Shown here one piece after another: positions 4,152 through 55,384 of a DNA stretch of 64,000 bases (position 1 is its first letter; every line of letters begins with the position of its first letter). This DNA is from Candidatus Omnitrophota bacterium (lineage in GTDB: Bacteria; Omnitrophota; Gorgyraeia; Zapsychrales; JANLHA01). Both the position numbers and the translations under genes were made by a program. The stretch lies in contig JBBRHV010000005.1 in NCBI GenBank assembly GCA_038222225.1, positions 1,824-65,823 of the forward strand, in the 5' to 3' direction. The notes under the pieces are model-generated. The model searched no databases. It was given only the letters and a program-made list of their open reading frames with translations, and was not told the DNA's origin.

Positions 4152-5240
4152 TTAAATCCGCATCGGAAGAGCTAAATACAAATAATCGTTTGTCCGAATC
4201 ACCCCGGCCTTGTCTGGGCCCATCAACTCTAAATTTATATCCTCTTGTTCGATGTTTTTCAAGACATCAATTAAAAATTGTGGGTTAAAGCCCACCACCA
4301 ACTCTTTTCCGCTGTATTCGATCCCGACTTCCTCCCGGGACTCCCCAACATTCGGAGTGGATTTTGAAACAACCAGCTTGTTTGAAAAAACCTCGCATTT
4401 GATGGCCTGAAAATCCGGAGTTGCCAGCAAATTCGCCCTTCGGATAGCGCTTAACAATTTCTGCGTGTTAACCTTTATTTTTTGCGGCGCCGGTTCTGGG
4501 ATGACCTGGTTGTAGTTTGGGAACTCTCCTTCTATGATCCGAGTCGCAATCAAAACGCCCTCAATATCAAACAAAACCTGATTTACTCCGCAAACAATAG
4601 ACACGGTCCCTTCTTCGGACAAATTTCTGTGAATTTCCTGAATTGCCTTAATAGGAATAATAACAGAAATGTTCTCTTTTGAAGGAACCTGCAGCTGCTT
4701 TTCGTTTTTCGCCAAGCGCCTGCCGTCTGTGGCGACCATACAGACCTTATTTTCTTTAATATCCATTAAAATTCCGTTTAAAACATAGCGGGACTCTTCA
4801 TGCGATACCGCAAAAGAGGTCATGCGGATCATTTCTTTCAGATCTTTTTGGTTTATGACGATAGCTTCTTTATTTTTAAAATCCGGAAATTTAGGAAATT
4901 CTTCTTTCGGCAACCCAATCAGCTTAAAACGGCATTTCTGCCCTTCTATATCAATCTGGTGGTTTTTCTTCGCATTTATCACGATTTCCCCAGAAGGCAA
5001 TTCTTTGGCTATATCGCTAAATCTTTTAGCTGGAATTGTTATCGCACCTTCTTCAATAGTTTCCACAGGTAATTCACAGGAGATGCCTATATCTAAATCT
5101 GTTGTATTTAAACGAAGAACGTTCCGTTTTGTTTCTATCAACATGTTGGATAAAATTGGAAGCGTGGCCTTGGAAGAGACTACATTTTGTACAATTTGAA
5201 TTCCCTGAATTAATGTATCTTTGTCAATTTTCACCTTCAT
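4152..5240 (-). CDS. dnaN: DNA polymerase III beta sliding clamp
   Basis: 362-aa ORF with three-domain clamp architecture, adjacent to dnaA. Confidence 0.95.
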   Translation of the reverse strand: MKVKIDKDTLIQGIQIVQNVVSSKATLPILSNMLIETKRNVLRLNTTDLDIGISCELPVETIEEGAITIPAKRFSDIAKELPSGEIVINAKKNHQIDIEGQKCRFKLIGLPKEEFPKFPDFKNKEAIVINQKDLKEMIRMTSFAVSHEESRYVLNGILMDIKENKVCMVATDGRRLAKNEKQLQVPSKENISVIIPIKAIQEIHRNLSEEGTVSIVCGVNQVLFDIEGVLIATRIIEGEFPNYNQVIPEPAPQKIKVNTQKLLSAIRRANLLATPDFQAIKCEVFSNKLVVSKSTPNVGESREEVGIEYSGKELVVGFNPQFLIDVLKNIEQEDINLELMGPDKAGVIRTNDYLYLALPMRI

Positions 5241-5403: not shown

Positions 5404-6744
5404 TTACTGTTTAATAAATGTGATTATCCGATCAATCTGTTTTTTAAGATCGCCATTTTCATCAAGAGCCTTTTCGATCTTGCGGAAAGCATGAAGAATG
5501 GTTGTATGGTCTTTTCCTCCAAAAAGCCCGCCGATTTCCGGAAGCGATAAATTAGTCATTTTTCTTGATAAATACATGGAAATTTGTCTAGGAAGAATGA
5601 TGTTTTTGTTTCTCTTTTTAGATTTAAGCTCGCTTAAGGGAAGATCAAAAAACCGGGCCACTTCTTTTTGAATAGTATCTACGCTAACGATCTTGGATGT
5701 TTCGTGCACCATGTCTTTTAAAACGGTTTTGGCGGTTTCCAGGCTCACAGGGCGCTCCTCTAATAAAGAATAGGCGACAACACGGATCAGAGCCCCCTCC
5801 AGTTCACGGATATTTGTTTTGATTTGTTCCGCAATAAAAAAAATCACGTCTTCCGGGACTTTAACCGGCTCTCGTTCCAGTTTTTTTCTTAGAATCGCAA
5901 CGCGTGTTTCAAAATCCGGCGGATGAATGTCTGCAATTAAACCCCAAGCGAAACGGGAAACTAGGCGCTCTTCCAGATTGGCAATCTCTTTTGGCGGCCG
6001 GTCTGAGGAAATGACGATTTGCTTGTGGCTATTATGAAGAGTGTTAAAGGTGTGAAAAAATTCTTCCTGGGTGGCTTCTTTCCCGGCTATGAAATGGATA
6101 TCGTCGATTAAAATAACATCAATGTTCCGGTATTTTTGGCGGAACTGCGTCGTGGATCTGTTTTTGATGGAGTCGATCAATTCATTGGTGAAATATTCAG
6201 AAGACAGATAAACGCATTTTTTTTCAGGAAACCTTTTTTTAATTTCATGAGCCACAGACTGCATCAGATGAGTTTTTCCTAATCCGACCTGACTATAAAG
6301 GAAAAGCGGGTTATATGATTTCGCCGGAGATTCGGCGACGGCCTTACAGGCCGCAAAAGCAAAGCGGTTAGATGGGCCGATCACAAAATTGTCGAAAGAA
6401 AAACGCGACGCCAGACTCAGAGACGGACGCGGTTCGCTGTCTCTTCCCTCTTGCTGGTACGGTGAAGGGCTTTCTGCGGCGGGTATTTTGGGTGCTTCTT
6501 TGGACAGCGAAGCGTTCACGGTTACGATGACGGACATCGGGCTTTCGGAATGCGAACTTAAAATTTGGCGGATCGTTGAAAGATAGTGATCTTCGAGCCA
6601 GGTTTTGAAAAAATCGTCTGGGGTTTCTAAGACTAGAACGTTCTCTTCTTCTCGTATGTGGATAGACGAGAACCAGGACTCATAGGAAGATGTTCCGATT
6701 TCATTTTTTATTTCATCTTGAATTGTTAGCCAAGTTGCAGACAT
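5404..6744 (-). CDS. dnaA: Chromosomal replication initiator DnaA
   Basis: 446-aa ORF with AAA+ Walker A (GLGKTHL) and a C-terminal DnaA-box-binding domain (ISMYLSRKMTNLSLPEIGGLFGGKDHTTILHAFRKI). Confidence 0.97.
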   Translation of the reverse strand: MSATWLTIQDEIKNEIGTSSYESWFSSIHIREEENVLVLETPDDFFKTWLEDHYLSTIRQILSSHSESPMSVIVTVNASLSKEAPKIPAAESPSPYQQEGRDSEPRPSLSLASRFSFDNFVIGPSNRFAFAACKAVAESPAKSYNPLFLYSQVGLGKTHLMQSVAHEIKKRFPEKKCVYLSSEYFTNELIDSIKNRSTTQFRQKYRNIDVILIDDIHFIAGKEATQEEFFHTFNTLHNSHKQIVISSDRPPKEIANLEERLVSRFAWGLIADIHPPDFETRVAILRKKLEREPVKVPEDVIFFIAEQIKTNIRELEGALIRVVAYSLLEERPVSLETAKTVLKDMVHETSKIVSVDTIQKEVARFFDLPLSELKSKKRNKNIILPRQISMYLSRKMTNLSLPEIGGLFGGKDHTTILHAFRKIEKALDENGDLKKQIDRIITFIKQ

Positions 6745-7076
6745 GTATGTCCGTATGGTTGTGGATGAGTTCCCTTTTCATAAAGTAATTCACAAAATGT
6801 GTAATTTATAACTCTATGGAAAAAGGAACGTTAGGTCCGGTTGAAATTTTTAGTGCACAGGTTTTCCACAGCTGTGAATTTCTTTTTCGGTTTCTTTTTG
6901 CTGTGGAAAAGTGAAATCATTATAGCAAACTCTTTAGTGATTGCAACTGTAAATCTTCTTTGAGGAAAACAATGAAAAATAAAGCTTAGCTAACTTGTTA
7001 CAAATCAAGGGTTTTTCACTCTTTGCGGCATTAAACATCTTGACTGTAAAAAAGACTATGCTATAATTTACAAATT
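6745..7076. promoter_or_regulatory. Candidate oriC / dnaA-rpmH divergent control region with DnaA-box-like 9-mers
   Basis: TGTGGATGA (about 6760-6768), TTTTCCACA (about 6862-6870) and TGTGGAAAA (about 6903-6911) each match the TTATCCACA consensus at 8 of 9 positions. The interval is AT-rich, and the gene-strand polarity switches exactly here. Confidence 0.5.
7040..7067 (+). promoter_or_regulatory. Sigma70-like promoter for rpmH (TTGACT-16-TATAAT)
   Basis: ttgact at 7040-7045 and tataat at 7062-7067, with a 16-nt spacer, about 10 nt upstream of the rpmH ATG. Confidence 0.6.
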
Positions 7077-7214
7077 ATGAAAAAGCATCTTAAAACACCA
7101 ACATTGATTAAAGGCAAGCGGACGCACGGGTTTCGAGCGCGCATGGCAACGGAAGACGGCAGGGACGTGTTAAGCCGCCGGAGAGCTAAAGGCCGTGCCA
7201 AGCTTTCTAAATAA
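7077..7214 (+). CDS. rpmH: 50S ribosomal protein L34
   Basis: 45-aa ORF ([45 protein letters not shown]), below the 60-aa cut-off of the ORF track. It is a classic L34 sequence. Confidence 0.9.
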
Positions 7215-7458
7215 ACACAATTTATCGACGAGCTTTACGTTCATTCTGAAAAGCCTCGTCTGTTTTTTTATTCAGTCCTATCAGAAGATAAGTCATTTGT
7301 GTTTACCGCGAGCTTGTCGGTTTTATCCCACATGTTCTTCGTATGCCTTGGAGGCCGTAGAGCGCTTCGGACTATTTAAGGGAGGATGGAAGGCCGCCAC
7401 GAGGGTTGTGCGGTGCAATCCTTTTTTAAAAGGGGGATACGATCCGGTAGAGGATTAA
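7195..7458 (+). CDS. yidD: Membrane protein insertion efficiency factor YidD
   Basis: Conserved [51 protein letters not shown] core. The start is uncertain; the GTG at 7195 overlaps the rpmH 3' end. Confidence 0.8.
7226..7269 (+). terminator. Rho-independent hairpin plus T-run after rpmH (attenuator inside the 5' end of yidD)
   Basis: Stem gacgagcttt...aaagcctcgtc followed by tgttttttta. This is analogous to the partial terminator that follows rpmH in other bacteria. Confidence 0.55.
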
Positions 7459-7463
7459 CTATT

Positions 7464-9101
7464 ATGGAAAAACGATTTGCGTTAGCGTTGGGGTTGTCTT
7501 TTTTGTTTTTCGTTGTTTGGGGGAGGATTTTCCCGGCAGTAAACTCACCAGTAAGCCTACAACAAACAAAAACCATTGAAAACAAAGAAGTTGCATCGTT
7601 TTCAGTCGGATCCGCAGAGCCGGCTCCTCAATCGCCCATTCAGGCGGCAGAGAGCAGTAAAAATATTCCAGAAGAAGTCTTGACTATTGAGAATGACAAG
7701 ATTCGGGTGTTTATCAGCAATCTTGGCGCCCGAATTGTAAAAGTCGAATTTAAGGAGTATGCTGGGGAAGAGTTTTTTGTTAATTCGGGAGCCGTTCTGG
7801 AATACAGAACAAAAACATATGCGATTGCAAGCAAGGATGGACAAAAAATCAGTCTGATTGGACGTTTTGAAGGTGTAAGCGTTGCTACAAGCTATGAACT
7901 ATCAGAAAACGAATATACTATTTTTGATAAAACAAGAATTTTAAATGAAACAAATGAGGCAAAAGTTGTTAATGCGGAAATTGAGCATGTTTACCTTGAC
8001 GGAGAGTGGCTGAAGGAAACGGTTGATGCTACAACTGGAGAAAAGAAGGACATTGGGCGAGACAAAAACCTTTTAGAATATTCTATCTATAGTAATGGCA
8101 ACGTTTTACGTAAAACAGGGGCCTTCGAATTCAAGGAAAAGGAAAAAAAGCAAGAGTTTTTAAGCGCCGAGTGGTTTGGCTATCGAAACAGATATTTTTG
8201 CTTTATTTCCCGCCCAGATTATACTAATGAAGGGTTCGTTGTAAATCCTATTGATAAGAATCAGCTTTCGCTTTTTGCCATATCTAAGGAAGTCGCCTTG
8301 AATAGGGGAGAGGCGGTTGAGCGTAATAGTTTTATTTATGTAGGGCCACAAAAAGCGTCGGATTTGTCAAAATATAGTGGAAATCTTGAGAAAATCCAGG
8401 TGTATTTTCGTTTTGAATTTTTGGATGCTATTGCAAAAATCATACAGGATGCCATTATATTTTTTCATAAGGGGATACCCAATTGGGGCGTTTGTATTAT
8501 CTTGGTGAGCATTTTGATCTATGGTTTGATGTATCCGCTGACATTCAAAAGCCTGCTTTCTATGAAAAAAATGCAGTCTTTGCAGCCAAAAATTCAAACT
8601 ATTCGGGAAAAGCACGAAGAGAATCCTCAGAAGCTTAATCAGGAAATCATGAAGCTTTATGCAGAGCACAAGATTAACCCTCTTGGAGGTTGTTTGCCTA
8701 TTTTTTTACAGATGCCGATTTTTATTGGGCTTTATCAGGTTTTGTGGCGATCGGTTTGGTTTAAGGGGGCGGGGTTTTTGTGGATTAAAGACCTGTCTGA
8801 GCCGGATCGCTTGATGCTTTTTAGTAAGCATTTCCCGGTTGTTGGAAATGAGCTTAATATTTTACCGTTGGTTATGATGGTTTTGATGTTTGTTCAGCAG
8901 AAAATGTCGACGAGAAGCATGGCAACGACCGACCCGAATCAGCTTGCTCAGCAGAAAATGATGACAACGATTTTTCCCTTGTTTTTAGGGTTTATCTTTT
9001 ATAAACTAGCTAGTGGATTGTCTCTGTATTTCACCATGTTTTATATGATGTCAATTGTCTCACAGATGTTAGTAGCTAAGCACATGAACAAGGATGCGTG
9101 A
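7464..9101 (+). CDS. yidC: Membrane protein insertase YidC (large periplasmic domain type)
   Basis: Start MEKRFALALGLSFLFF (N-terminal TM), a large periplasmic beta-sandwich region, and the conserved C-terminal 5-TM core (PLTFKSLLSMKKMQSLQPKIQ...GGCLPIFLQMPIFIGLY). The track ORF begins earlier at 7386 in the same frame. Confidence 0.95.
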   Translation: MEKRFALALGLSFLFFVVWGRIFPAVNSPVSLQQTKTIENKEVASFSVGSAEPAPQSPIQAAESSKNIPEEVLTIENDKIRVFISNLGARIVKVEFKEYAGEEFFVNSGAVLEYRTKTYAIASKDGQKISLIGRFEGVSVATSYELSENEYTIFDKTRILNETNEAKVVNAEIEHVYLDGEWLKETVDATTGEKKDIGRDKNLLEYSIYSNGNVLRKTGAFEFKEKEKKQEFLSAEWFGYRNRYFCFISRPDYTNEGFVVNPIDKNQLSLFAISKEVALNRGEAVERNSFIYVGPQKASDLSKYSGNLEKIQVYFRFEFLDAIAKIIQDAIIFFHKGIPNWGVCIILVSILIYGLMYPLTFKSLLSMKKMQSLQPKIQTIREKHEENPQKLNQEIMKLYAEHKINPLGGCLPIFLQMPIFIGLYQVLWRSVWFKGAGFLWIKDLSEPDRLMLFSKHFPVVGNELNILPLVMMVLMFVQQKMSTRSMATTDPNQLAQQKMMTTIFPLFLGFIFYKLASGLSLYFTMFYMMSIVSQMLVAKHMNKDA

Positions 9102-9295
9102 TTGCAGTGGAAAAGAACCTTCGAAAAAAATGGCTCTTTGAGGGAAACACCGTGGAAGAGGCAATTCAAAAAGGTCTCAAGGAAACGGGGTTTTCTAAAG
9201 AAGACGTAGATATTAAAGTTGTTAATGAAGAACAAAAGGGCCTGTTCGGGATGGAAGGGGCGAATCCTGCAAAGATTATTATCGTAAAGAAGTAA
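9098..9295 (+). CDS. Jag N-terminal-domain-only protein (truncated Jag/KhpB homolog)
   Basis: 65 aa resembling only the Jag_N domain (FEGNTVEEAIQKGLKETGFSKEDVDIKV..EEQKGLFG). No KH or R3H domains follow, and it overlaps the yidC stop by 4 nt. Confidence 0.6.
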   Translation: MIAVEKNLRKKWLFEGNTVEEAIQKGLKETGFSKEDVDIKVVNEEQKGLFGMEGANPAKIIIVKK

Positions 9296-9328
9296 AACTT
9301 TAAAAAGAGCTTTTGTTTTTAGAATAGA

Positions 9329-9344
9329 CGTTTCACGTGAAACG
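9329..9344. promoter_or_regulatory. parS centromere-like site (cGTTTCACGTGAAACg)
   Basis: 16-bp perfect palindrome matching the tGTTTCACGTGAAACa consensus in its 14 central positions. Confidence 0.8.
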
Positions 9345-9404
9345 TTTTTCTTTTTTACAGACACTTTGGACATTTTAGATTGGACAAATTAATGTCCAAT
9401 CTGT

Positions 9405-13976: not shown

Positions 13977-13993
13977 GGACCCGTAGCTCAGTT
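13977..13993 (+). pseudogene. Orphan 5' fragment of tRNA-Val (17-nt identity to acceptor + D-arm of the downstream tRNA-Val)
   Basis: ggacccgtagctcagtt is identical to the first 17 nt of the tRNA-Val at 14079. The sequence then diverges and shows no cloverleaf. Confidence 0.4.
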
Positions 13994-14078
13994 TTAGCCA
14001 GAGGCTGATACGCCTCAGGCGGAGGTTAGAGAGGCTGGGCAGAGAGAGCGGGAAAAATTTTGAATTGGTGAAATGTTA

Positions 14079-14155
14079 GGACCCGTAGCTCAGTTGGTTA
14101 GAGCGCTTCCTTGACATGGAAGAGGTCACAAGTTCGAGTCTTGTCGGGTCCACCA
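14079..14155 (+). tRNA. tRNA-Val (GAC) with encoded CCA
   Basis: Acceptor ggacccg/cgggtcc, anticodon stem cttcc/ggaag with loop ttGACat, T-arm aagttcgagtctt, ending ...a-cca. Confidence 0.85.
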
Positions 14156-23626: not shown

Positions 23627-23646
23627 GGTTGTGATATAATACAATT

Positions 23647-23803
23647 CCCTGCGGTGCTCGTTAGGACTATTATAAACGAACCAATGCAATGACTATGGGA
23701 GCTTTACTTCTGACTGTCCCTTGGGGCAGCTAGGGAGGCACCCACTTGGTGAACCCGGTTCGCCTATGTCAGTAGTCCGACGGCATTTGCGGGGATTTTT
23801 TAT
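23647..23803 (+). ncRNA. Candidate ~155-nt structured sRNA or leader with its own extended -10 promoter (tgaTATAAT at 23632-23640)
   Basis: There is a promoter immediately after the pheT terminator. The 5' end (ccctgcgg) can pair with the 3' end (ttgcgggg), which is followed by attttttat. I recognise no protein-coding frame or riboswitch/RNase P/tmRNA signature. Confidence 0.25.
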
Positions 23804-34342: not shown

Positions 34343-34978
34343 ATGAAAAGATTTCCACAGCGCACTATTATACGGGCTTTTATTTATTTGAGGGCGCTTG
34401 ACGCCCTTATTGAAGACGGGCGGGTGTATGTATCTTCCGGCGAGCTTGCCACAATAACATCGCTCACGGATGTTCAGATCCGTAAAGATATTTCGGCTTT
34501 TGGAAAAGTCGGAAAGCCTCGCGTTGGTTATGATACGCGCCGTTTGAAACAGCTTTTGGAAGAGTTTGTGGTTCAGAATGTTGTTCATGTGGTTTTGTTT
34601 GGGGTTGGAAATTTGGGTTCCGCCATTTTGCGGTATCCCGGATTTCAGGAAGACAAAATTAAGATTGTGGCTGCTTTTGACAGTGACCCGGAAAAAGGCG
34701 ACAAAGCCATTAACGGAATTTCAATCTATCCGCTTGATAAAGCCAAGATGATCATTCAAAAGAAACATGTGGAAATCGGCGTGATCGCTGTTCCCAAACA
34801 AGCCAGTCAGCAGATTGCCGACCTTTTGGTGTCCTGCGGGGTAGAGTGCGTCGTGAATTTTTCACCGACGAATATCAGCGTGCCTAAAGGCACGTTTGTG
34901 AAGAATATTGACCTGGCGGTAGAGTTTTTAGCGCTTTTTTGTGATATGAGTTCAAAGAAGGCCGCTCAACATGCATGA
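34343..34978 (+). CDS. rex: Redox-sensing transcriptional repressor Rex
   Basis: N-terminal winged helix (ELATITSLTDVQIRKDISAFG) and a C-terminal Rossmann NADH-sensing domain (VVLFGVGNLGSAIL). Confidence 0.9.
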   Translation: MKRFPQRTIIRAFIYLRALDALIEDGRVYVSSGELATITSLTDVQIRKDISAFGKVGKPRVGYDTRRLKQLLEEFVVQNVVHVVLFGVGNLGSAILRYPGFQEDKIKIVAAFDSDPEKGDKAINGISIYPLDKAKMIIQKKHVEIGVIAVPKQASQQIADLLVSCGVECVVNFSPTNISVPKGTFVKNIDLAVEFLALFCDMSSKKAAQHA

Positions 34979-35324
34979 GCTTTCCATTGCCAGCGCACTG
35001 ATGGAGCAGATCATTTCGGAAGCGGAAAAGCATGAGCTTTCGCATATCGATGAGGTAGAGATTCATGCTGGCATTTTACGTCAGGTGATTCCCGAGGTCA
35101 TGCAGGAAGCGTTTCGGGAGGTGTCTGTGAAAACAGTTGCGGAAGGTGCGCTCCTGATCATTGTTGAAATTGAAGCGCAGGCCCGTTGCCGGAAATGCCA
35201 AACAGTGTTTGAGCCCACCTTAGATTCTTTTTTGTGTCCGCACTGTCAGATCGCGGATGTGGACATTCTTAAAGGCGACGAGATTATTCTGGCGGCGATC
35301 ATGTCTAACAGCGTAAATTTATAA
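34971..35324 (+). CDS. hypA: Hydrogenase nickel incorporation protein HypA
   Basis: MHELSIA N-terminus (Ni site) and two C-terminal CxxC motifs (CRKC...CPHC). Confidence 0.85.
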   Translation: MHELSIASALMEQIISEAEKHELSHIDEVEIHAGILRQVIPEVMQEAFREVSVKTVAEGALLIIVEIEAQARCRKCQTVFEPTLDSFLCPHCQIADVDILKGDEIILAAIMSNSVNL

Positions 35325-35333
35325 GGATGGATT

Positions 35334-36017
35334 ATGAAAATTAATATTGTGAAAAATGTTTTAAAGGCCAACGACCTGGTGGCGCAGGCGAACCGGAAAA
35401 CTTTTAAGGAGAAGGGTGTCTTGGCGGCGAATTTTATCAGTTCTCCCGGAAGCGGTAAAACCACGCTTCTGGAGAAAACCCTTACGGCTTTAGGGGAGCA
35501 GCAGCATAAGGCAACGGTGATCGTCGGTGATTTGCAGACAACCCGGGATGCGCAGCGGCTGGAGCCGTTTGCTTACCAGGTGGTGCAGATCAACACGGGG
35601 ACGAGCTGTCATTTATATGCCAATCAGGTTGCCGAGAGCCTGCCGAAGCTTGACCTGGAAGCGGTTGAATATGTCTTTATTGAGAATGTGGGCAACATGG
35701 TCTGTCCGGGTGAGTTTGACCTGGGTGAAAACATCAAGGTCATTCTTTTGAGCCTGCCGGAAGGGGACGATAAGGTGGCGAAATACCCGACGATTTTCCG
35801 TGCCGCGGATGTGGTGTTGCTGACAAAGACCGATTTAGAACCGGTGATGTCTTTTGATAAAAAGCAGGTTTATGACGATATTTCGCGTTTGAATGCCAAT
35901 ATTGAGATTATTGAGGTTTCTGCCAAAACAGGAGAAGGACTGTCTTGTTGGGTTGAGTGGCTTAAAAAGAGACGCAAGGAAGGAATTGGCGCACAAGTAA
36001 AGTTTATAACGGAATAG
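35334..36017 (+). CDS. hypB: Hydrogenase nickel incorporation GTPase HypB
   Basis: P-loop GSPGSGKTTLL, CH motif, and G-domain ENVGNMVCP. Confidence 0.9.
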   Translation: MKINIVKNVLKANDLVAQANRKTFKEKGVLAANFISSPGSGKTTLLEKTLTALGEQQHKATVIVGDLQTTRDAQRLEPFAYQVVQINTGTSCHLYANQVAESLPKLDLEAVEYVFIENVGNMVCPGEFDLGENIKVILLSLPEGDDKVAKYPTIFRAADVVLLTKTDLEPVMSFDKKQVYDDISRLNANIEIIEVSAKTGEGLSCWVEWLKKRRKEGIGAQVKFITE

Positions 36018-36043
36018 GCGGGAGGTAGGTGTAAAAAATCTCC

Positions 36044-36101
36044 TTGCAACATAAGGAGAAATTGATATAATAATTTCTTATAATTGTTAAAATTTTCACG
36101 A
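36044..36101 (+). promoter_or_regulatory. hox operon promoter (TTGCAA-16-TATAAT) with second Rex-operator-like site TTGTTAAAATTTTCACGA
   Basis: The -35 is at 36044-36049 and the -10 at 36066-36071. The operator at 36084-36101 is nearly identical to the one upstream of rex. Confidence 0.6.
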
Positions 36102-36160
36102 TTTAAAGGTTGAACCGTAAAGCTCTGTTTAACATTTTGAAAAAAATAAGGGCCTCTCTT

Positions 36161-37975
36161 ATGACTAAAGAACTTCAAAGTACAATTCAAGTAATTTGTA
36201 AACAATGCGGGAATGACAAGGCGCGCATGATGGATGTTATGACCGCGGTTCAGAAAAAGCACGGTTGTATTTCCAGCCAGGCTATGGATTTGATCGCCAA
36301 GCAGCTGAAGGTCGACCGGATCGATGTGGAAAGCGCAGCCACGTTTTATTCATTTTTATCCACAAAGCCTAAGGGCAAAACGGTCATTCGGCTGTGTAAT
36401 GACATTGTTGATATGATGCAGGGCGCAAAGGAAGTTGCGGCTGCGCTTGAGCAGGAGTTGGGCATCAAATTCGGCGAACAAACTCCGGATGGAAACATTT
36501 CATTGGAATACACCCCTTGCATCGGAATGTGCGATCAGGCTCCGGCAGCTTTAATCAATGATGTGGTGATGACCTATTTATCAAGCGACAAGGCTCGGGA
36601 GATCGTGCGTGAGCTCAAGAAACACAATGATCCTAAAAAAATTGCTTGTCGTGTCGGTGATGGCAATAACGCCCATGAGCTTGTGCGCTCCATGGTTCAT
36701 AACGGTTTGCGCAAAAAAGGGGACGTGATTTTTGGTGAGCATGCGGCAAATGGCGGCCTGAAAAAAGCCCTGGGGATCAGCCCGGTTGAGGTCATTCGGG
36801 AAATCAAAACGGCCCGCTTAAGAGGCCGCGGCGGAGCAGGATTTCCGACGGGTATGAAATGGGAATTTACGCGTGCCGCGGAAGGTGAAAAGAAATATGT
36901 TCTCTGTAACGCAGATGAGGGAGAACCGGGAACATTTAAAGACCGGATCCTTTTGACCGAAAAGTATGACCTGATGTTTGAAGGTATGACCATCGGCGCT
37001 TACGCGATCGGGGCGCAAGAAGGCATCGTATATTTGCGGGGTGAATATGCGTATTTGAAAGATTTTTTAAACGCCATGCTTGCCAAAAGACGGGCGGACG
37101 GCTTATTGGGAAAAAATGTTTTAGGCAAAAGTGGTTTTGATTTTGATATCCGGATCCAGCTCGGAGCCGGGGCTTATATTTGCGGGGAAGAAACATCTTT
37201 GATTAGTTCGGCAGAGGGCCTAAGAGGGGATCCTAAGACCCGTCCGCCATTTCCTGCACAAAAGGGATATTTAGGTTGTCCGACAACAGTGAACAATGTG
37301 GAAACATTCTGCTGTGTGGCCCGTATATTAGAGAAGGGAGCCGCATGGTTCTCACAGGTGGGGACACCTGGAAGCCCTGGAACAAAATTATTGAGCGTTT
37401 CCGGCGATTGTGCTAGCCCGGGAATTTACGAGTTTCCCTTTGGGATTAAAGTGGAAGAGATGCTGCAGGCTGTCGGCGCTCAGGATGTACAGGCCGTGTT
37501 GATGGGCGGTCCATCAGGTCAGTTTATTGGGGCAGCGGATTTTAAGCGCGCGATTTGTTATGATGATTTGGCTACGGGCGGTTCAGTGGTAATCTTTAAT
37601 AAGACACGCGACCTGTTGGGGCTCGTCGATTATTACATGGACTTCTTTGTGGAAGAAAGCTGCGGATACTGTACGCCATGCCGTGTCGGCAATGTGTTGT
37701 TGAAAAATGGCGTTGATAAGATCCGCGGGGGCCGGGGGGATTTGGCCGATTTAGCGTATTTAGAGGATCTGGGGAAGTCGATCAAATTGACCAGCCGCTG
37801 CGGTTTAGGGCAGACATCGCCTAATCCGGTGGTAACGACCATTAAGAACTTCCGCGGTATCTATGAAAAAATTATAAAAGAACAGAAGGCGGGCATGATA
37901 TCAACGTTTGATATTCATGACGCGTTGAAGCAGGGCGAAGAAGCATCGGGACGAAAATCAGAGATCTTTAAATAA
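36161..37975 (+). CDS. hoxF: NAD(P)-linked bidirectional [NiFe] hydrogenase diaphorase subunit HoxF (NuoE-like plus NuoF-like fusion)
   Basis: N-terminal thioredoxin-like 2Fe-2S domain, the NuoF FMN/NADH module (GRGGAGFPTGMKW, GAYICGEETSLISSAEG), and a C-terminal 4Fe-4S CxxCxxC. The ATG at 36161 is preferred over the upstream TTG at 36110. Confidence 0.85.
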   Translation: MTKELQSTIQVICKQCGNDKARMMDVMTAVQKKHGCISSQAMDLIAKQLKVDRIDVESAATFYSFLSTKPKGKTVIRLCNDIVDMMQGAKEVAAALEQELGIKFGEQTPDGNISLEYTPCIGMCDQAPAALINDVVMTYLSSDKAREIVRELKKHNDPKKIACRVGDGNNAHELVRSMVHNGLRKKGDVIFGEHAANGGLKKALGISPVEVIREIKTARLRGRGGAGFPTGMKWEFTRAAEGEKKYVLCNADEGEPGTFKDRILLTEKYDLMFEGMTIGAYAIGAQEGIVYLRGEYAYLKDFLNAMLAKRRADGLLGKNVLGKSGFDFDIRIQLGAGAYICGEETSLISSAEGLRGDPKTRPPFPAQKGYLGCPTTVNNVETFCCVARILEKGAAWFSQVGTPGSPGTKLLSVSGDCASPGIYEFPFGIKVEEMLQAVGAQDVQAVLMGGPSGQFIGAADFKRAICYDDLATGGSVVIFNKTRDLLGLVDYYMDFFVEESCGYCTPCRVGNVLLKNGVDKIRGGRGDLADLAYLEDLGKSIKLTSRCGLGQTSPNPVVTTIKNFRGIYEKIIKEQKAGMISTFDIHDALKQGEEASGRKSEIFK

Positions 37976-37995
37976 TCTAACTATAAGGGATCGTT

Positions 37996-38709
37996 ATGAG
38001 CGACAAAACATTGACATTTACAATTGACGGAGTTGAAGTAAAGGGCTGCCCCGGGCAGACCATCATGCAGGTGGCCGATGAGGCAGGGATTTATATTCCG
38101 CGCCTGTGTTATTGGGACGGGTTAAAGCCGCACGGAAGTTGCCGTTTGTGTACGGTGCTGGTCAATGGACGTCCGCAAGCGGCCTGCACACAGCCGATCG
38201 CGCAGGGGATGGCCGTTGAGCACAACACCGAAGAGCTCAAAGAGCGTCGCCGGGATATTGTGGACATGCTGTTTGTCGAAGGCAATCATTTTTGTATGGT
38301 TTGTGAGAAAAGTGGCAATTGCGAGCTTCAGGCCCAGGCCTATCGTTTGGGAATTGTAGCTCCGAAATATCCATTTCAGTTTCCGGTGTGCACGGTGGAT
38401 GCAACGCATCCGGATATTTTTATTGACCGCAATCGCTGCATTTTGTGCGGACGATGTGTTCAGGCCTCGATCGATTTAGACGGAAAACATGTTTTTGATT
38501 TTGTAGGCCGCGGCAAGAATAAAAGAATCGCGGTTAATGCCGAAGCCCGTTTGGCTGATACAGATCTGGACATTACGGACAAGGCAACTGAAGTGTGCCC
38601 GGTTGGGGCGATTATTAAGAAGCGTGTCGGGTATGCAATACCGGTGGGCCAGCGCCTTTATGACAAAAAGCCTATCGGCTCTGACATTGAAGCGAAACAA
38701 ACAAAGTAA
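37996..38709 (+). CDS. hoxU: Hydrogenase diaphorase iron-sulfur subunit HoxU (NuoG N-terminal-like)
   Basis: 2Fe-2S ferredoxin (CRLC) and 4Fe-4S motifs (CILCGRC, CEKSGNC). Confidence 0.85.
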   Translation: MSDKTLTFTIDGVEVKGCPGQTIMQVADEAGIYIPRLCYWDGLKPHGSCRLCTVLVNGRPQAACTQPIAQGMAVEHNTEELKERRRDIVDMLFVEGNHFCMVCEKSGNCELQAQAYRLGIVAPKYPFQFPVCTVDATHPDIFIDRNRCILCGRCVQASIDLDGKHVFDFVGRGKNKRIAVNAEARLADTDLDITDKATEVCPVGAIIKKRVGYAIPVGQRLYDKKPIGSDIEAKQTK

Positions 38710-38728
38710 CCGTTTTGAACAAGGATTT

Positions 38729-39280
38729 ATGATCATGGAAAAACCCAAAGTTGCAACAGCGTCATTGGCCGGATGTTTTGGTTGTCATATGTCGATCTTG
38801 GACATTGATGAACGGATCTTACAGCTCATTGAGCTGGTGGATTTCGACAAGTCCCCCATCGACGATATCAAAGAATTTACCGGTCGTTGCCGGATCGGTT
38901 TGATCGAAGGTGGATGTTCAACCGAAGAGAATGTTCATGTGCTGCAAAAATTCCGTAAGAACTGCGATATTCTCATCTCAGTCGGTGAATGCGCGATTAC
39001 TGGCGGAGTTCCGGCCATGCGCAATGGCATTCCCCTCAAGGAATGCTTGGAGGAGGCGTATCTTAACGGACCGACGGTCTACAATCCCGCAAGAACGCTG
39101 CCGAAGGATCCCGAAATTCCTTTATGTTTGGATCAGGTGTATCCGTGTCATCATGTGGTTAAGATTGATTATCATCTTCCGGGCTGTCCGCCGTCTGCGG
39201 ATTTGATCTGGGAGGCATTGGTTGCGCTGCTGAGCGACAAACCGATAGAATTGCCGTATGAACTTATTAAGTACGATTAA
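38729..39280 (+). CDS. hoxY: [NiFe] hydrogenase small subunit HoxY
   Basis: ASLAGCFGCHMS proximal cluster motif. About 183 aa, typical of a group 3 small subunit. Confidence 0.8.
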   Translation: MIMEKPKVATASLAGCFGCHMSILDIDERILQLIELVDFDKSPIDDIKEFTGRCRIGLIEGGCSTEENVHVLQKFRKNCDILISVGECAITGGVPAMRNGIPLKECLEEAYLNGPTVYNPARTLPKDPEIPLCLDQVYPCHHVVKIDYHLPGCPPSADLIWEALVALLSDKPIELPYELIKYD

Positions 39281-39298
39281 TCAAAATGGAGATGTGCT

Positions 39299-40735
39299 GT
39301 GGATAGAAAAAATTTAAAACGAGTTGTTATTGAACCGGTGACCCGCGTTGAAGGTCACGGGAAGGTTTCAATTCTTCTTGATGAAAATGATATTGTTCAG
39401 CAGGCCAGACTTCATATTGTGGAATTCCGGGGGTTTGAGCGGTTTGTGAAAGGGCGTCCGTATTGGGAAGTTCCGGTCATGATCCAGCGTTTATGCGGGA
39501 TCTGTCCGGTCAGCCATCACCTGTGTGCGGCGAAGGCCATGGACCGCATTGTCGGCGGTGAGAATTTGACTCCGACGGCGGAAAAGATCCGGCGCTTGAT
39601 GCATTACGGCCAGACATTTCAATCGCATGCATTGCATTTTTTTCATTTGGTTTCACCTGATTTGCTGTTTGGATTTGAGGCTGATCCGGCGATCCGCAAT
39701 GTGATCGGCGTAGCCAAGAAGTTTCCGGAGTTGGCCGTTCAAGGCGTGATGATGCGCAAATACGGCCAGGAAATTATTAAAGCCACGGCAGGCAAAAAGA
39801 TCCACGGCACCGGGGCGGTTCCGGGTGGGGTCAATAAGAACTTGTCCATCTCCGAGCGCGATGCGCTTTTAAAGGATTTAGATCAAATGGTGATTTGGGC
39901 CAGAAGCGCTTTGAAGCTGGCTAAAGAATATACGGTAACAAATTTTGATAAAGTTAAGGATTTTGGTTCTTTTGATTCGAACCATTTAGGCCTTGTGCGT
40001 GAGGATGGATGTTTGGATTTATATAACGGAAATCTGCGTGCGGTGGATTCTCAAGGCAATACGATTTTTGATCAGGTCAATCCTTTGGATTATGCCGAGC
40101 ATTTGGCTGAAGAGGTCAAGGATTGGTCGTACATGAAGTTTCCGTTCATCAAAAAGATCGGTCCGGAAAACGGATGGTATCGAGTCGGACCGTTGGCGCG
40201 CATCAATATCTGTGATTTTATCGATACGCCGGAAGCGGAAAAAGAACGCCAGGAATTTAAAGCGTTGACCAACGGCAAACCGAACAATATCACGATGGCC
40301 TATCATTGGACGCGTATGATCGAAACACTGCATTCGATCGAAAAAATTAAAGAGCTTCTTCATGATCCGGATTTGCAGGGCACGGATCTGGTGGTTAAGG
40401 GCAAGCGCCGTGAAGAGACGGTCGCCATCCTCGAGGCTCCGAGAGGAACATTGTTCCATCATTATAAAGTGAACAAAGATGATCAGGTCGTGATGGCGAA
40501 TTTGATCGTTTCAACGACCAGCAATAATGAGCCGATGAACCGTGCGGTTCAGCGTGTGGCCAAAGATTCGCTGAACGGAAAAGTCATTACCGAAGGGCTT
40601 TTGAACCATATTGAAGTGGCTATCCGCGCTTATGATCCGTGCTTGTCATGCGCGACACATGCGCTTGGTCAGATGCCGCTGGTGGTCAGCCTGTTTGATC
40701 ATGAAGGCAATCTGCTTGATAAAAAGGTGAAGTAA
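39299..40735 (+). CDS. hoxH: [NiFe] hydrogenase large subunit HoxH
   Basis: N-terminal L1 motif RLCGICPVSHH and C-terminal L2 motif DPCLSCATHA. Confidence 0.9.
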   Translation: MDRKNLKRVVIEPVTRVEGHGKVSILLDENDIVQQARLHIVEFRGFERFVKGRPYWEVPVMIQRLCGICPVSHHLCAAKAMDRIVGGENLTPTAEKIRRLMHYGQTFQSHALHFFHLVSPDLLFGFEADPAIRNVIGVAKKFPELAVQGVMMRKYGQEIIKATAGKKIHGTGAVPGGVNKNLSISERDALLKDLDQMVIWARSALKLAKEYTVTNFDKVKDFGSFDSNHLGLVREDGCLDLYNGNLRAVDSQGNTIFDQVNPLDYAEHLAEEVKDWSYMKFPFIKKIGPENGWYRVGPLARINICDFIDTPEAEKERQEFKALTNGKPNNITMAYHWTRMIETLHSIEKIKELLHDPDLQGTDLVVKGKRREETVAILEAPRGTLFHHYKVNKDDQVVMANLIVSTTSNNEPMNRAVQRVAKDSLNGKVITEGLLNHIEVAIRAYDPCLSCATHALGQMPLVVSLFDHEGNLLDKKVK

Positions 40736-40737
40736 TC

Positions 40738-41205
40738 ATGCCGGTGGGACAATCATCCAGAGTGCTGGTCATCGGCTTTGGAAATCCCGGAAGGCTGGAT
40801 GACGGTTTAGGCCCGGCCTTGGCAGCAGAGCTCGAGGTTTTAAATCTTTCTGATGTCACGGTAGACGCTAATTATCAGCTGACCGTTGAGGATTCCGATG
40901 CAGTTAAAGATCATGATGTGGTGATCTTTGCCGATGCATCGGTGGATTGCCGGGAGCCATTTGAATTTTATCCGATCCTTCCTGAGGCTAAAACGCACTT
41001 TTCAAGTCATTTCTTGGCGCCGGAAGACGTGTTGGGGCTGGCGCAGGACGCTTTTTCCGCCCGCACACGGGGTTTTGTGCTGGCGATCCGCGGTTATGAA
41101 TTTAATGAATTTGGTGAAAGGCTTTCACAGCAGGCAGCGACTAATCTACAGGCAGCAAAGCAGTTCTTAGTGGACCGTATTCAGAAACGGGATTTTGACA
41201 GCTAA
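40738..41205 (+). CDS. hoxW: Hydrogenase maturation endopeptidase (HoxW/HycI family)
   Basis: 155 aa with the LVIGFGNPGRLDDGLG motif, immediately after the large subunit. Confidence 0.8.
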   Translation: MPVGQSSRVLVIGFGNPGRLDDGLGPALAAELEVLNLSDVTVDANYQLTVEDSDAVKDHDVVIFADASVDCREPFEFYPILPEAKTHFSSHFLAPEDVLGLAQDAFSARTRGFVLAIRGYEFNEFGERLSQQAATNLQAAKQFLVDRIQKRDFDS

Positions 41206-41233
41206 CGGAAGAACTTTTCACAGGAGAATAATC

Positions 41234-41608
41234 ATGCAAGACGGAAAACATGTGATTTTGGTTATTGATGATGAGCAGGATATTTTAAAGGTCGTTCAGG
41301 CGTTTCTTGAAAATCACGGCTATTCTGTTTTAACAGCCAGCTCCGCCGAAGAAGGTGTAAAGATTTATAAAAAGGGGCACCCGGACCTGATCATCGTCGA
41401 TTTAATGATGGAAGAGGTTGATGCCGGGGTGAATTTTGTTAAAGAGGTAAAATTATTGGGAAATACAGCGTCGGTTTATCTTTTGAGCGGCGCAGGTGAT
41501 AGCATGGCGGATAGTATTGATTATGAGGCAATGGGCTTTAGCGGTGTTTTTCAAAAACCCATTGACCGCCAGCGCCTGTTGAGTACGATTCATTCAAAAT
41601 TATCCTAA
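41234..41608 (+). CDS. Stand-alone CheY-like response regulator receiver domain
   Basis: DD acidic pocket, phospho-acceptor Asp in IIVDLMM, and conserved Lys in FQKP. About 124 aa with no output domain. The RBS is aggaga. Confidence 0.75.
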   Translation: MQDGKHVILVIDDEQDILKVVQAFLENHGYSVLTASSAEEGVKIYKKGHPDLIIVDLMMEEVDAGVNFVKEVKLLGNTASVYLLSGAGDSMADSIDYEAMGFSGVFQKPIDRQRLLSTIHSKLS

Positions 41609-41687
41609 GACTACGTCTGAGTATGAGAATGCCTTCCTTTGAAGCGCCATCCAATCGGACGCGCTGTTCTTCAATGGACATAATGCT

Positions 41688-43994: not shown

Positions 43995-44038
43995 TATAAT
44001 GCCGTTTTACAGGTGGCATTTTAAAAAGAGGGTGTGGA

Positions 44039-44284
44039 ATGTGTTTAGCGGTTCCCGGAAAAATTGTAGAGATCATCAATGACGATCCGCTGGAGCGCTC
44101 CGGAAAGGTCAGCTTCGGCGGCATTACCCGTGAAGTCAATTTGGCCTGTGTTCCTGAGGCCAACCCCGGCGAGTATGTTATTGTCCATGTTGGCATGGCC
44201 TTAAGCGTGGTTGATGAAGCGGAAGCACAGCAGATGTTAGAGTATATTCAGTCGGAAGACGACCTTCGCAAAGAGGGACTATGA
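44039..44284 (+). CDS. hypC: Hydrogenase maturation factor HypC
   Basis: [13 protein letters not shown]-terminus. Confidence 0.85.
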
Positions 44285-45369: not shown

Positions 45370-45545
45370 GACACCGGGCAGTTTCTAGTGTTATAGTGTC
45401 TTAGCCCTGCGGAATTCGCAGAATTCCCGGGATTGGTCTCCCACGCAAAATAAAATTTTGAATGGGACATTATCTTGGCAAATCTGTGATTTGCTCAAGG
45501 CTAAGACAAGCTTTCAGTTTGTGTAGGATATCCTGGTGTCTTTTA
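45362..45545. repeat. Copies of the CTAAGACAC/GTGTCTTAG motif family in the hypD-hypE intergenic region
   Basis: agacactaagacacc lies at the hypD 3' end, and the inverted pair ctaagacac(21 nt)gtgtcttag follows. Further copies are ggctaagacaag and ggtgtctttt, the same motif as in the 27.7-27.96 kb array. Confidence 0.45.
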
Positions 45546-45558
45546 TAAGGAAACACAA

Positions 45559-49030: not shown

Positions 49031-49032
49031 TC

Positions 49033-50865: not shown

Positions 50866-50887
50866 GGAAAGAGAGGGACTTCGTCAC

Positions 50888-55381: not shown

Positions 55382-55384
55382 AGA

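What the first reader, a model, noticed from the sequence alone, without database searches (positions are those of the whole stretch)
7077..7458. rnpA is absent from the universally conserved rpmH-rnpA-yidD-yidC string; an attenuator hairpin lies inside yidD
rpmH is followed directly by yidD. The yidD conserved core begins about 55 nt after the rpmH stop, and a possible GTG start overlaps the rpmH 3' end. There is no room for an RNase P protein gene. A strong hairpin with a T-run (7226-7269) sits inside the 5' part of yidD. This is reminiscent of the partial terminator that down-tunes genes downstream of rpmH in other bacteria. The organism either encodes rnpA elsewhere or uses a non-canonical, protein-only HARP-type RNase P.
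Basis: partly seen in the sequence, partly recalled or inferred. Interest (0 to 1): 0.55.

Follow-up and report, generated by a model that had tools for sequence, protein, structure and literature searches.

The report
Omnitrophota rpmH operon lacking rnpA
In this uncultured Omnitrophota bacterium and its whole clade, the RNase P protein gene has been cleanly removed from its usual place after rpmH, and a conserved leaky-terminator-like hairpin lies across the start of the next gene; no replacement RNase P gene could be found with the sequence available.

Summary
rpmH (7077-7214) is followed directly by yidD (ends 7458), yidC (7464-9101) and a Jag_N-only gene. The 64 kb window holds no rnpA, HARP or RNase P RNA.

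The absence is clade-wide. All 12 related Omnitrophota loci, spanning 29-70% YidC identity, have rpmH-yidD with no rnpA within about 10 kb. A sister clade (Makaraimicrobium, class Gorgyraia; 8 loci) keeps rpmH-rnpA-yidD-yidC in otherwise identical synteny.

Published tables point the same way. A 93%-complete Velamenicoccia MAG has dnaA, yidC and yidD but no rnpA by KO or Pfam. A list of 751 HARP-positive genomes contains no Omnitrophota. Relocation, extreme divergence and true loss of rnpA remain unresolved, because I could not read a whole genome.

The hairpin is real: 7227-7260, 34 nt, about -10 kcal/mol, followed by TGTTTTTTT. It is unremarkable statistically when taken alone. It is, however, kept in position, length and pairing in three lineages while its flanks diverge, and the following 11 yidD codons are invariant at the nucleotide level (p = 3e-5). 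It most likely acts as a leaky rpmH terminator that overlaps the decayed yidD start (ATG to CTG).

rpmH also has a clade-specific promoter ending 9 nt before its ATG, which would give a near-leaderless mRNA.

The parts
5404..6744 (-). dnaA, divergent from rpmH. The intergenic region 6745-7076 carries a cluster of DnaA-box-like sites (6657, 6760, 6862, 6902), so this is probably the replication origin.
   Evidence: Pfam Bac_DnaA E = 2e-72; DnaA-box matches
7040..7067 (+). rpmH promoter: TTGACT, 16 nt spacer with TG, then TATAAT. The -10 hexamer ends 9 nt before the rpmH ATG and there is no Shine-Dalgarno sequence, so the mRNA would be near-leaderless.
   Evidence: It matches 11 of 12 consensus positions and has an extended -10. 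The same architecture and spacing occur in 7 of 7 rnpA-less loci examined. rnpA-retaining loci instead show an AAGGAG/AGGAG-type SD (one reads AAGGGG) followed by a GTG start in 6 of the 7 printed; the start picked for the seventh, L086, was not resolved.
7077..7214 (+). rpmH (ribosomal protein L34, 45 aa)
   Evidence: Pfam Ribosomal_L34 E = 9e-17
7227..7260 (+). A 34-nt hairpin with 10 base pairs and one bulge. It begins 12 nt after the rpmH stop codon. The loop holds the position of the ancestral yidD start codon.
   Evidence: Free energy is -9.5 to -10.9 kcal/mol. Length and position are the same in L084 (-12.0) and L094 (-13.2). All 10 pairs hold in 3 of 3 sequences; the only changes are one-sided A/G changes. 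The 5' arm CGACGAGCTTT is invariant, while the 11-nt spacer and the loop diverge.
7261..7272 (+). U-tract TGTTTTTTTATT directly after the stem. It also encodes Cys-Phe-Phe-Ile of YidD.
   Evidence: From the 3' arm onward, 11 codons are nucleotide-invariant in 3 lineages, against 38 of 56 variable codons in the rest of yidD (Fisher p = 2.7e-5).
7195..7458 (+). yidD. The true start is uncertain. The longest ORF begins at GTG 7195, inside rpmH. The ancestral ATG, kept in L094 and L085, aligns with CTG 7246. ATT 7243 matches the start that the gene table reports for the L084 homologue.
   Evidence: Pfam YidD E = 9e-27 over residues 20-85; alignments; the L084 gene call 4738-4953 begins with ATT
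7464..9101 (+). yidC membrane insertase
   Evidence: Pfam 60KD_IMP E = 2e-54 and YidC_periplas
9098..9295 (+). A Jag/KhpB remnant holding only the Jag_N domain (65 aa). It is the last gene of the operon and is followed by two terminator-like sites at 9326-9347 and 9376-9403.
   Evidence: Pfam Jag_N E = 1e-16; terminator scan; genes of 62-73 aa at the same position in the related loci whose gene tables were shown, with no such gene called in L092
13577..14155 (+). tRNA-Cys/Leu/Val cluster. This is indirect evidence that the organism needs an RNase P-type 5' endonuclease.
   Evidence: In relatives L002 and L004 the same three tRNAs are only 15-23 nt apart, which is too close for separate promoters.

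Best explanation
**Shown.**
- The window is the origin region of an Omnitrophota genome. Its nearest named relatives are Zapsychrus, class Velamenicoccia.
- Its rpmH operon is rpmH-yidD-yidC-jagN. The RNase P protein gene, which lies between rpmH and yidD in most bacteria and in a sister Omnitrophota clade, has been excised without disturbing the neighbouring genes.
- This excised state is shared by a wide set of Omnitrophota lineages.

**Inferred: how the operon is expressed.**
- rpmH is transcribed from a near-consensus promoter that abuts its ATG, giving a near-leaderless mRNA.
- The 34-nt hairpin and U-tract that begin 12 nt after the rpmH stop terminate most of these transcripts.
- The fraction that reads through supplies yidD, yidC and jagN, which are needed in far smaller amounts than L34.
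- The terminator overlaps the first codons of yidD. The original yidD ATG has decayed to CTG, so YidD is probably made at a low level, either from a non-canonical start (ATT or CTG) or from the upstream GTG.

**Inferred: where RNase P comes from.**
- RNase P activity is still required, because the tRNA genes are clustered and must be co-transcribed.
- The least surprising source is an RNA-based enzyme whose protein subunit is encoded elsewhere in a relocated and probably strongly diverged form.
- This step is the weakest. It could not be tested on this genome.
For: **Gene identities and absence in the window.** establish the gene identities and the absence of rnpA and rnpB.

**Clade-wide absence.** Loci L002-L006, L009, L031, L082/L083/L084, L085 and L094 all lack rnpA within about 10 kb.

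**Sister clade keeps the gene.** L007 and L086-L093 have gyrA-gyrB-dciA-dnaN-dnaA | rpmH-rnpA-yidD-yidC-parA-parB, with a Jag_N gene after yidC in all but L092. These rnpA products are named 'ribonuclease P protein component [Candidatus Omnitrophota bacterium]'.

**Promoter.**

**Hairpin conservation.**. Nucleotide invariance of the 3' arm, the U-tract and the following codons has p = 2.7e-5.

**No alternative promoter.** No other + strand promoter-like site lies between 7067 and yidC.

**The genome uses intrinsic terminators.** Clear examples follow rplT (17217, -23 kcal/mol), the 6S RNA and jag.

**Need for down-tuning.** In E. coli, L34 is about 130-fold more abundant than RnpA, so genes downstream of rpmH need strong down-tuning (PMC9945441).

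**Need for RNase P.** The tRNA genes are closely clustered.
Against: **Hairpin.**
- Taken alone it is not statistically exceptional (z = -1.5; 14 of 95 T-runs have a comparable hairpin).
- Its loop is 13 nt, or 7 nt if two inner pairs form.
- No base pair shows a compensatory double change.
- It is absent from the 50%-identity relative L085 and from more distant Omnitrophota.
- No transcript data exist.

**The 'relocated, diverged rnpA' step.**
- A 92.7%-complete Velamenicoccia MAG (genome 231 in Seymour et al. 2023) has dnaA, yidC and yidD but no K03536 or PF00825 anywhere.
- Omnitrophus fodinae (70% complete) has no TIGR00188.
- An exhaustive profile search seeded with sister-clade rnpA found 71 representative clusters below E = 1e-10. 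Every one whose context I checked (6 look-ups, plus L007) is the canonical rpmH-linked kind. No second, unlinked Omnitrophota rnpA group appeared.
Confidence: 0.55

Rival explanations
1. RnpA has truly been lost in this Omnitrophota clade and HARP has not replaced it. tRNA 5' ends would then be made by an RNase P RNA acting alone, by an RNase P RNA with an unrelated protein partner, or by a protein-only enzyme of a kind not yet described.
For: - rnpA is cleanly excised in 12 loci, while the sister clade keeps it.
- A 92.7%-complete MAG of the class has the origin genes dnaA, yidC and yidD but no rnpA by KO or Pfam.
- O. fodinae lacks TIGR00188.
- No unlinked Omnitrophota rnpA turned up among the best 150 of 1209 hits of an exhaustive profile search.
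- No Omnitrophota genome appears in the list of 751 HARP-positive genomes.
- No paper in the library links Omnitrophota with RNase P.
Against: - RnpA is reported in nearly all bacterial genomes, and the only accepted exceptions carry HARP (PMC6380272, PMC10941002).
- The whole-genome evidence rests on two incomplete MAGs. The same table misses rpmH in genome 231, so small genes do go uncalled.
- My profile was narrow (3 seed sequences) and only 150 hits were visible.
- No complete genome was examined.
- rnpB could not be searched outside about 330 kb of held sequence.
Confidence: 0.3
2. This is an Aquifex-like replacement. The RNA-protein RNase P was lost and a HARP (PIN_5) protein-only RNase P encoded elsewhere does the job.
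For: The reduced gene order rpmH-yidD-yidC is exactly that described for A. aeolicus and A. pyrophilus, which rely on HARP alone (PMC10941002).
Against: - No HARP-like ORF occurs in the window or in any held locus. The A. aeolicus HARP query was validated against PDB 7F3E; its best E-value against held ORFs is 0.9. Pfam scans of the window's ORFs show no PF08745.
- Table S1 of PMC12153264 lists 751 HARP-positive genomes out of more than a million, and none is Omnitrophota.
- HARP is linked to hot, saline or alkaline habitats.
Confidence: 0.04
3. The hairpin and T-run are a by-product of coding and chance, not a terminator. yidD-yidC would then be fully co-transcribed with rpmH and tuned only at the level of translation.
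For: - The z-score is -1.5.
- 15% of T-runs in the window have a comparable upstream hairpin.
- The T-run encodes Phe-Phe in a hydrophobic N-terminal helix.
- There is no double covariation.
- The element is absent from L085 and from other Omnitrophota.
Against: - The non-coding 5' arm is 11 of 11 invariant in three lineages, although the adjacent 11-nt spacer and the loop have diverged.
- Synonymous sites are frozen over 11 codons (p = 2.7e-5).
- Hairpin length and distance from the stop codon are identical in all three lineages.
- L085 encodes different residues at the T-run position (Val-Leu-Gly-Met-Ile), so the protein does not require the T-run.
Confidence: 0.15
4. The hairpin acts mainly on translation or RNA stability. 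It would hide the yidD initiation region, or serve as a 3' stabiliser or processing site for rpmH mRNA, rather than stop RNA polymerase.
For: - The ancestral yidD start codon lies in the loop or at the loop-stem junction in all three lineages.
- yidD has no Shine-Dalgarno sequence.
- Two lineages independently lost the ATG (CTG in the window, TCA in L084), which suggests unusual initiation.
Against: A stem followed at once by seven or more U residues is the signature of intrinsic termination, and a purely translational hairpin has no need for it. The two roles are not exclusive.
Confidence: 0.12

Closest known systems
Aquifex aeolicus / A. pyrophilus rpmH-yidD-yidC locus (HARP-only Aquificaceae)
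   Same: The reduced gene order is identical, with rnpA removed between rpmH and yidD (PMC10941002).
   Different: Aquificaceae are hyperthermophiles that carry HARP. No HARP is recorded for any Omnitrophota and none is in the window. Whether rnpB is also missing here is unknown.
Canonical bacterial rpmH-rnpA-yidD-yidC(-jag) operon (E. coli and many others; Omnitrophota class Gorgyraia)
   Same: The flanking genes, their order, the divergent dnaA and the downstream parAB are the same.
   Different: rnpA is absent. rpmH has an ATG start 9 nt after the -10 hexamer, instead of a leader with an SD and a GTG start. Jag is reduced to its N-terminal domain.
Differential expression within the E. coli rpmH-rnpA operon (Hansen et al. 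1985, cited in PMC9945441). That a partial terminator lies after rpmH in E. coli is my recollection and was not verified here.
   Same: A highly expressed ribosomal protein gene is followed by genes needed at levels about 100-fold lower. A hairpin with a T-run sits just after rpmH.
   Different: Here the element overlaps the coding start of the next gene, yidD, and is confined to one genus-to-family-level group of three lineages.
Thermus thermophilus rnpA, which overlaps rpmH in another reading frame (Feltens et al. 2003; from memory)
   Same: It is another case in which rnpA seems absent from the expected spot.
   Different: Tested and not the case here. No + strand ORF of at least 30 aa overlaps rpmH except yidD, and the rnpA HMM finds nothing in any frame.
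Rho-independent (intrinsic) terminators and attenuators
   Same: A G+C-containing stem of 10 base pairs is followed within 2 nt by a run of 7 U. It lies 12 nt past a stop codon. The genome uses such terminators elsewhere.
   Different: The stem is weak (about -10 kcal/mol), the loop is large, and the element sits inside the next coding sequence. All three features suggest leaky rather than full termination.

Membership tests
Canonical rpmH-rnpA-yidD-yidC operon | rpmH, yidD and yidC present, co-oriented and adjacent | tested here: met
   Pfam L34, YidD and 60KD_IMP at 7077-9101
Canonical rpmH-rnpA-yidD-yidC operon | rnpA (PF00825) directly downstream of, or overlapping, rpmH | tested here: not met
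   There are 37 nt between the rpmH stop and the YidD domain. The rnpA HMMs find nothing in the window.
RnpA (Ribonuclease_P, PF00825 / TIGR00188) | Any ORF in the genome matching the family | tested here: inconclusive
   Absent from the 64 kb window and from 11 related loci. The whole genome could not be read. Published tables show no rnpA in one 92.7%-complete MAG of the class.
HARP protein-only RNase P (PIN_5, PF08745) | An ORF of about 190 aa matching PF08745 or A. aeolicus Aq_880 | tested here: not met
   No hit in the window or held loci. Pfam scans of the window's ORFs show none. No Omnitrophota genome is in the published HARP list. Absence across the whole genome was not directly testable.
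Bacterial RNase P RNA (Rfam RF00010 / RF00011) | A match at or above the gathering score | tested here: not met
   No match in the window or in 8 Omnitrophota loci totalling 133 kb. The rest of the genome could not be tested.
Aquifex-type RNase P replacement | Genome-wide absence of both rnpA and rnpB together with presence of HARP | not testable with these tools
   Only the locus signature rpmH-yidD-yidC is shared.
Intrinsic terminator | A stable stem followed directly by a U-tract, downstream of a stop codon | tested here: met
   The stem has 10 base pairs at -9.5 to -10.9 kcal/mol. TGTTTTTTT follows. The element starts 12 nt after the rpmH stop.
Intrinsic terminator | A short loop of 3-8 nt, and a fold more stable than chance | tested here: inconclusive
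   The loop is 13 nt, or 7 nt with two inner pairs. The consensus scan did not call the element. The z-score is -1.5.
Intrinsic terminator | Transcripts actually end at the U-tract | not testable with these tools
   This needs Term-seq, 3' RACE or in vitro transcription.
Conserved RNA structure | Pairing kept across relatives, with compensatory changes | tested here: inconclusive
   All 30 pair cells are paired in 3 sequences, against 40-63% in slid controls, but no pair changes on both sides. Support comes from arm invariance against diverged flanks, and from frozen synonymous sites.
Leaderless mRNA | The promoter -10 hexamer lies within about 10 nt of the start codon and there is no Shine-Dalgarno sequence | tested here: met
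   TATAAT ends at 7067 and the ATG is at 7077. The same spacing holds in 7 of 7 loci of the clade that were examined. The transcription start has not been mapped.

The most novel reading that the evidence does not exclude
A large, mostly mesophilic clade of Omnitrophota (Velamenicoccia, Omnitrophus and relatives) may have neither RnpA nor HARP. It would then mature tRNA 5' ends with an RNase P RNA that has lost its universal protein subunit, or has recruited a different one, or with an undescribed protein-only enzyme. The sister class Gorgyraia keeps the ancestral state and would serve as a natural control.
Probability: 0.3. Interest if true: 0.9.

Novelty: new variant of a known kind. Interest (0 to 1): 0.6.

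Why it matters
RnpA is regarded as essential and near-universal in bacteria. The only accepted exception, the Aquificaceae, led to the discovery of HARP, a new class of RNase P.

A second, much larger and non-thermophilic lineage now shows the same locus signature. It has no recorded HARP, and a sister clade keeps rnpA in identical synteny. This gives a sharply defined comparison. Either it exposes how far RnpA can diverge and move, or it points to another way of building RNase P.

The question can be settled at once with existing complete Omnitrophota genomes.

The operon remodelling is a compact example of how expression levels are re-balanced after a gene is lost from a ribosomal-protein operon. 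It comprises a promoter-abutted rpmH, a terminator overlapping the yidD start, and a decayed yidD start codon.

Tried and rejected
1. **rnpA hidden in another frame over rpmH (Thermus-style).** Rejected: no such ORF exists and the HMM gives no signal.
2. **Assembly artefact.** Rejected: 12 independent loci from different samples and assemblers share the junction.
3. **HARP search in the protein database.** The query was A. aeolicus HARP. The 120 visible hits that carry a name were almost all Aquificaceae, and none was Omnitrophota, so this was uninformative for Omnitrophota.
4. **Word-indexed protein search with Makaraimicrobium RnpA.** It returned only 3 hits. I switched to the exhaustive representative search and used cluster names and contig look-ups to place the hits.
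5. **Looking for an Omnitrophota rnpA not linked to rpmH.** All 6 contexts retrieved were canonical.
6. **Rfam scans for RNase P RNA.** The window and 8 loci gave only tRNAs and a 6S RNA. A permissive Rfam scan of 6700-7600 gave only noise.
7. **Literature.** No paper joins Omnitrophota with RNase P. The Omnitrophota genome papers do not mention rnpA or rnpB.
8. **Second hairpin plus T6 inside the yidD 3' end (about 7384-7427).** It is not conserved in L084, so I treated it as chance.
9. **Walking along the 538 kb contig of the close relative.** Not attempted. Look-ups return only about 10 kb of flank, and two look-ups remained.

Full report
**What is in the window.** The region is a replication-origin neighbourhood.
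- dnaA lies at 5404-6744 on the minus strand. It faces a short intergenic region with clustered DnaA-box-like sites.
- On the plus strand follow rpmH (7077-7214), yidD (ORF 7195-7458), yidC (7464-9101), a 65-aa gene with only the Jag_N domain (9098-9295), parA and parB.
- The best YidC matches are named Candidatus Omnitrophota, including Zapsychrus.
- In the taxonomy of Seymour et al. 2023, the closest species-representative locus, L002 (RIFOXYA2_FULL_38_17), is Zapsychrus unditaenarius of class Velamenicoccia.

**Checking the observation.**
- The Pfam YidD match starts at residue 20 of the longest ORF, which is nt 7252, only 37 nt after the rpmH stop. No rnpA can fit.
- I built an rnpA HMM from 63 rnpA genes found next to yidC in other phyla. 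I later enlarged it with 74 Omnitrophota RnpA sequences. Neither version gives any signal in six-frame ORFs of the window.
- Rfam at gathering thresholds finds four tRNAs and a 6S RNA but no RNase P RNA.
- Pfam scans of the window's other main ORFs show no Ribonuclease_P and no PIN_5. The remaining ORFs were assigned by synteny with the L082/L084 gene tables.
- A. aeolicus HARP, verified against PDB 7F3E, has no relative in the window.
- The observation therefore stands. Three side statements need correction: 'universally conserved', 'strong hairpin' and 'DUF188-type'.

**The absence is a clade character.**
- A YidC-anchored scan of GTDB species representatives returned 80 loci. rnpA lies between rpmH and yidD/yidC in 67 of them.
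- It is missing in every Omnitrophota locus except one. The loci without it are L002-L006, L009 and L031.
- Closer relatives fetched by exact-protein look-up have the same rpmH-yidD junction. They are L082/L083/L084 (70% YidC identity), L094 (69%) and L085 (50%).
- The exception, L007, is Candidatus Makaraimicrobium thalassicum (class Gorgyraia). It has rpmH, then rnpA (114 aa, GTG start overlapping the rpmH stop), then yidD and yidC.
- An exhaustive profile search seeded with this RnpA found 71 representative clusters below E = 1e-10. Every named one is 'ribonuclease P protein component [Candidatus Omnitrophota bacterium]'.
- All six contexts I retrieved share one synteny: glmS-x-gyrA-gyrB-dciA-dnaN-dnaA | rpmH-rnpA-yidD-yidC-parA-parB-pyrR-pyrB (the pyr genes in five of the six), with a Jag_N gene after yidC in all but L092.
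- Both clades share the flanking genes, including the unusual Jag_N-only gene. In one clade rnpA has been removed precisely. On a rough YidC tree the rnpA-positive loci form one clade and the rnpA-less loci form two groups.

**Is rnpA elsewhere?** I could not read the rest of this genome. Three indirect lines bear on the question.
- First, no rnpA lies within about 10 kb in 12 rnpA-less loci, nor in the 64 kb window.
- Second, the stored part of the source data of Seymour et al. 2023 lists annotations for a few genomes.
  - Genome 231 (Velamenicoccia, Duberdicusellales; 92.7% complete, 0% contamination) has dnaA (K02313), yidC (K03217) and yidD (K08998). It has neither K03536 nor PF00825.
  - Omnitrophus fodinae (70% complete) lacks TIGR00188.
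  - Genome 58 (order B26-G9), SKK-01 (Gorgyraia) and GWA2-52-8 (Omnitrophia) do have rnpA.
  - A caveat: genome 231 also lacks an rpmH call, so tiny genes are sometimes missed.
- Third, none of the Omnitrophota RnpA sequences I could place is unlinked from rpmH.
- Together these argue against a simple relocation of a recognisable gene. They cannot separate extreme divergence from loss.

**HARP.**
- The reduced order rpmH-yidD-yidC is exactly what is described for A. aeolicus and A. pyrophilus (PMC10941002).
- A survey of more than a million genomes found HARP in only 751. Its Table S1, which is held in full, contains no Omnitrophota entry.
- HARP is therefore unlikely here.

**RNase P activity is still needed.** The tRNA-Cys/Leu/Val cluster of the window is only 15-23 nt apart in relatives L002 and L004. 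These tRNAs must be cut out of a common transcript.

**The hairpin.**
- Positions 7227-7260 fold into a 10-bp stem with one bulge, followed by TGTTTTTTTATT.
- Alone it is unremarkable: z = -1.5, and 14 of 95 plus-strand T-runs have a comparable hairpin.
- In L084 and L094, whose YidC is only about 70% identical to the window's, the element has the same length (34 nt). It also has the same distance from the rpmH stop and the same tail.
- The 11-nt spacer and the loop have diverged, whereas the non-coding 5' arm CGACGAGCTTT is invariant.
- All ten pairs hold in all three sequences. The only changes are A-to-G changes that keep pairing, and there are no double compensatory changes.
- The 11 yidD codons from the 3' arm onward show no nucleotide change at all. 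In the rest of the gene 38 of 56 codons vary (Fisher p = 2.7e-5). This points to a constraint on the nucleic acid itself.
- L085 and more distant Omnitrophota lack the element. There yidD starts right after, or overlapping, the rpmH stop.

**The yidD start.**
- L094 and L085 have an ATG that aligns with CTG 7246 in the window and with TCA in L084. The start codon has therefore decayed twice.
- The gene table for L084 begins yidD at the ATT one codon upstream. The window has ATT at 7243.
- The GTG at 7195 inside rpmH is also open in all three lineages. It arises from the conserved Gly-Arg-Ala codons of L34, so its conservation carries no information.
- Whichever start is used, the U-tract lies inside yidD.

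**Promoter.**
- The only strong promoter-like site on the plus strand is TTGACT-16(TG)-TATAAT at 7040-7067. It ends 9 nt before the rpmH ATG and there is no Shine-Dalgarno sequence.
- The same arrangement is found in all seven rnpA-less loci examined.
- In the rnpA-retaining clade, 6 of the 7 loci printed have a GTG start preceded by an AAGGAG/AGGAG-type SD (one reads AAGGGG), with the TATAAT 27-47 nt upstream. The start picked for the seventh, L086, was not resolved.
- No promoter-like site was found between rpmH and yidC. The essential yidC must therefore be reached by read-through.
- This fits a leaky terminator that lowers expression from ribosomal-protein level. In E. coli, L34 is about 130-fold more abundant than RnpA (PMC9945441).

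**Verdict.**
It is an ancient, clade-wide excision of rnpA with a matched sister clade, accompanied by a remodelled operon.
- The mechanism of RNase P in this clade is unresolved.
- I rate a relocated or diverged rnpA as most likely, true loss without HARP at about 0.3, and HARP at about 0.04.
- No paper in the searchable library connects Omnitrophota with RNase P.

Noticed in passing
window 7040-7079; L084, L094, L085, L002, L004, L005 upstream of rpmH: In the rnpA-less clade, rpmH starts with an ATG exactly 9 nt after a consensus extended -10 promoter and has no Shine-Dalgarno sequence, so the mRNA would be near-leaderless. In the rnpA-retaining clade, 6 of the 7 loci printed have a GTG start with an AAGGAG/AGGAG-type SD and a leader, the TATAAT lying 27-47 nt upstream.
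   Followed up: partly
window 7243-7248; L084 4738-4743; L094; L085: The ancestral yidD ATG has decayed independently to CTG (window) and TCA (L084), yet the gene stays under purifying selection. The gene table for L084 uses an ATT start.
   Followed up: yes
window 9098-9295; the same position in the related Omnitrophota loci with gene tables: Jag/KhpB is reduced to a 62-73 aa protein with only the Jag_N domain, lacking KH and R3H, in both the rnpA-less and rnpA-retaining clades. No such gene was called in L092.
   Followed up: partly
window 13978-13994 and 14080-14096: A 17-nt copy of the 5' end of tRNA-Val (GGACCCGTAGCTCAGTT) lies about 100 nt upstream of the real tRNA-Val. The tRNA spacers here are 149-197 nt, against 15-23 nt in relatives L002 and L004. 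This could be a recombination or integration scar.
   Followed up: no
window 23643-23799: A 6S RNA gene (Rfam 77 bits) lies between pheT and a MgsA/RarA-type ATPase gene. It ends at a hairpin followed by a T-run.
   Followed up: no
window 6657-6910: Four DnaA-box-like sites with one mismatch cluster around the dnaA start and the dnaA-rpmH spacer. Two of them are inverted TTTTCCACA copies. This is probably oriC. The window-wide count is not significant.
   Followed up: partly
L008 (record titled 'uncultured Planctomycetales bacterium'): Its YidC groups with Omnitrophota locus L009, and it has the same rnpA-less rpmH/yidD junction with a TGATG overlap. The record may be misclassified.
   Followed up: no
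window about 7384-7427: A second hairpin (-13 kcal/mol) followed by TTTTTT lies inside the yidD 3' end, just before yidC. The stem is not conserved in L084, so it is probably chance.
   Followed up: partly
proteins P0251, P0269, P0276, P0283 (166-172 aa): In some Omnitrophota-type RnpA representatives the RnpA domain starts at residue 48-60. These may be read-through or fused L34-RnpA gene calls.
   Followed up: no
window 34971-46593 and 47418-59424: One cluster carries hydrogenase genes (NuoF-like, NuoG-like, small and large NiFe subunits) with hypA, hypB, hypF, hypD and hypE maturation genes. It is followed by a sulfate-assimilation, siroheme and heme-biosynthesis cluster.
   Followed up: no
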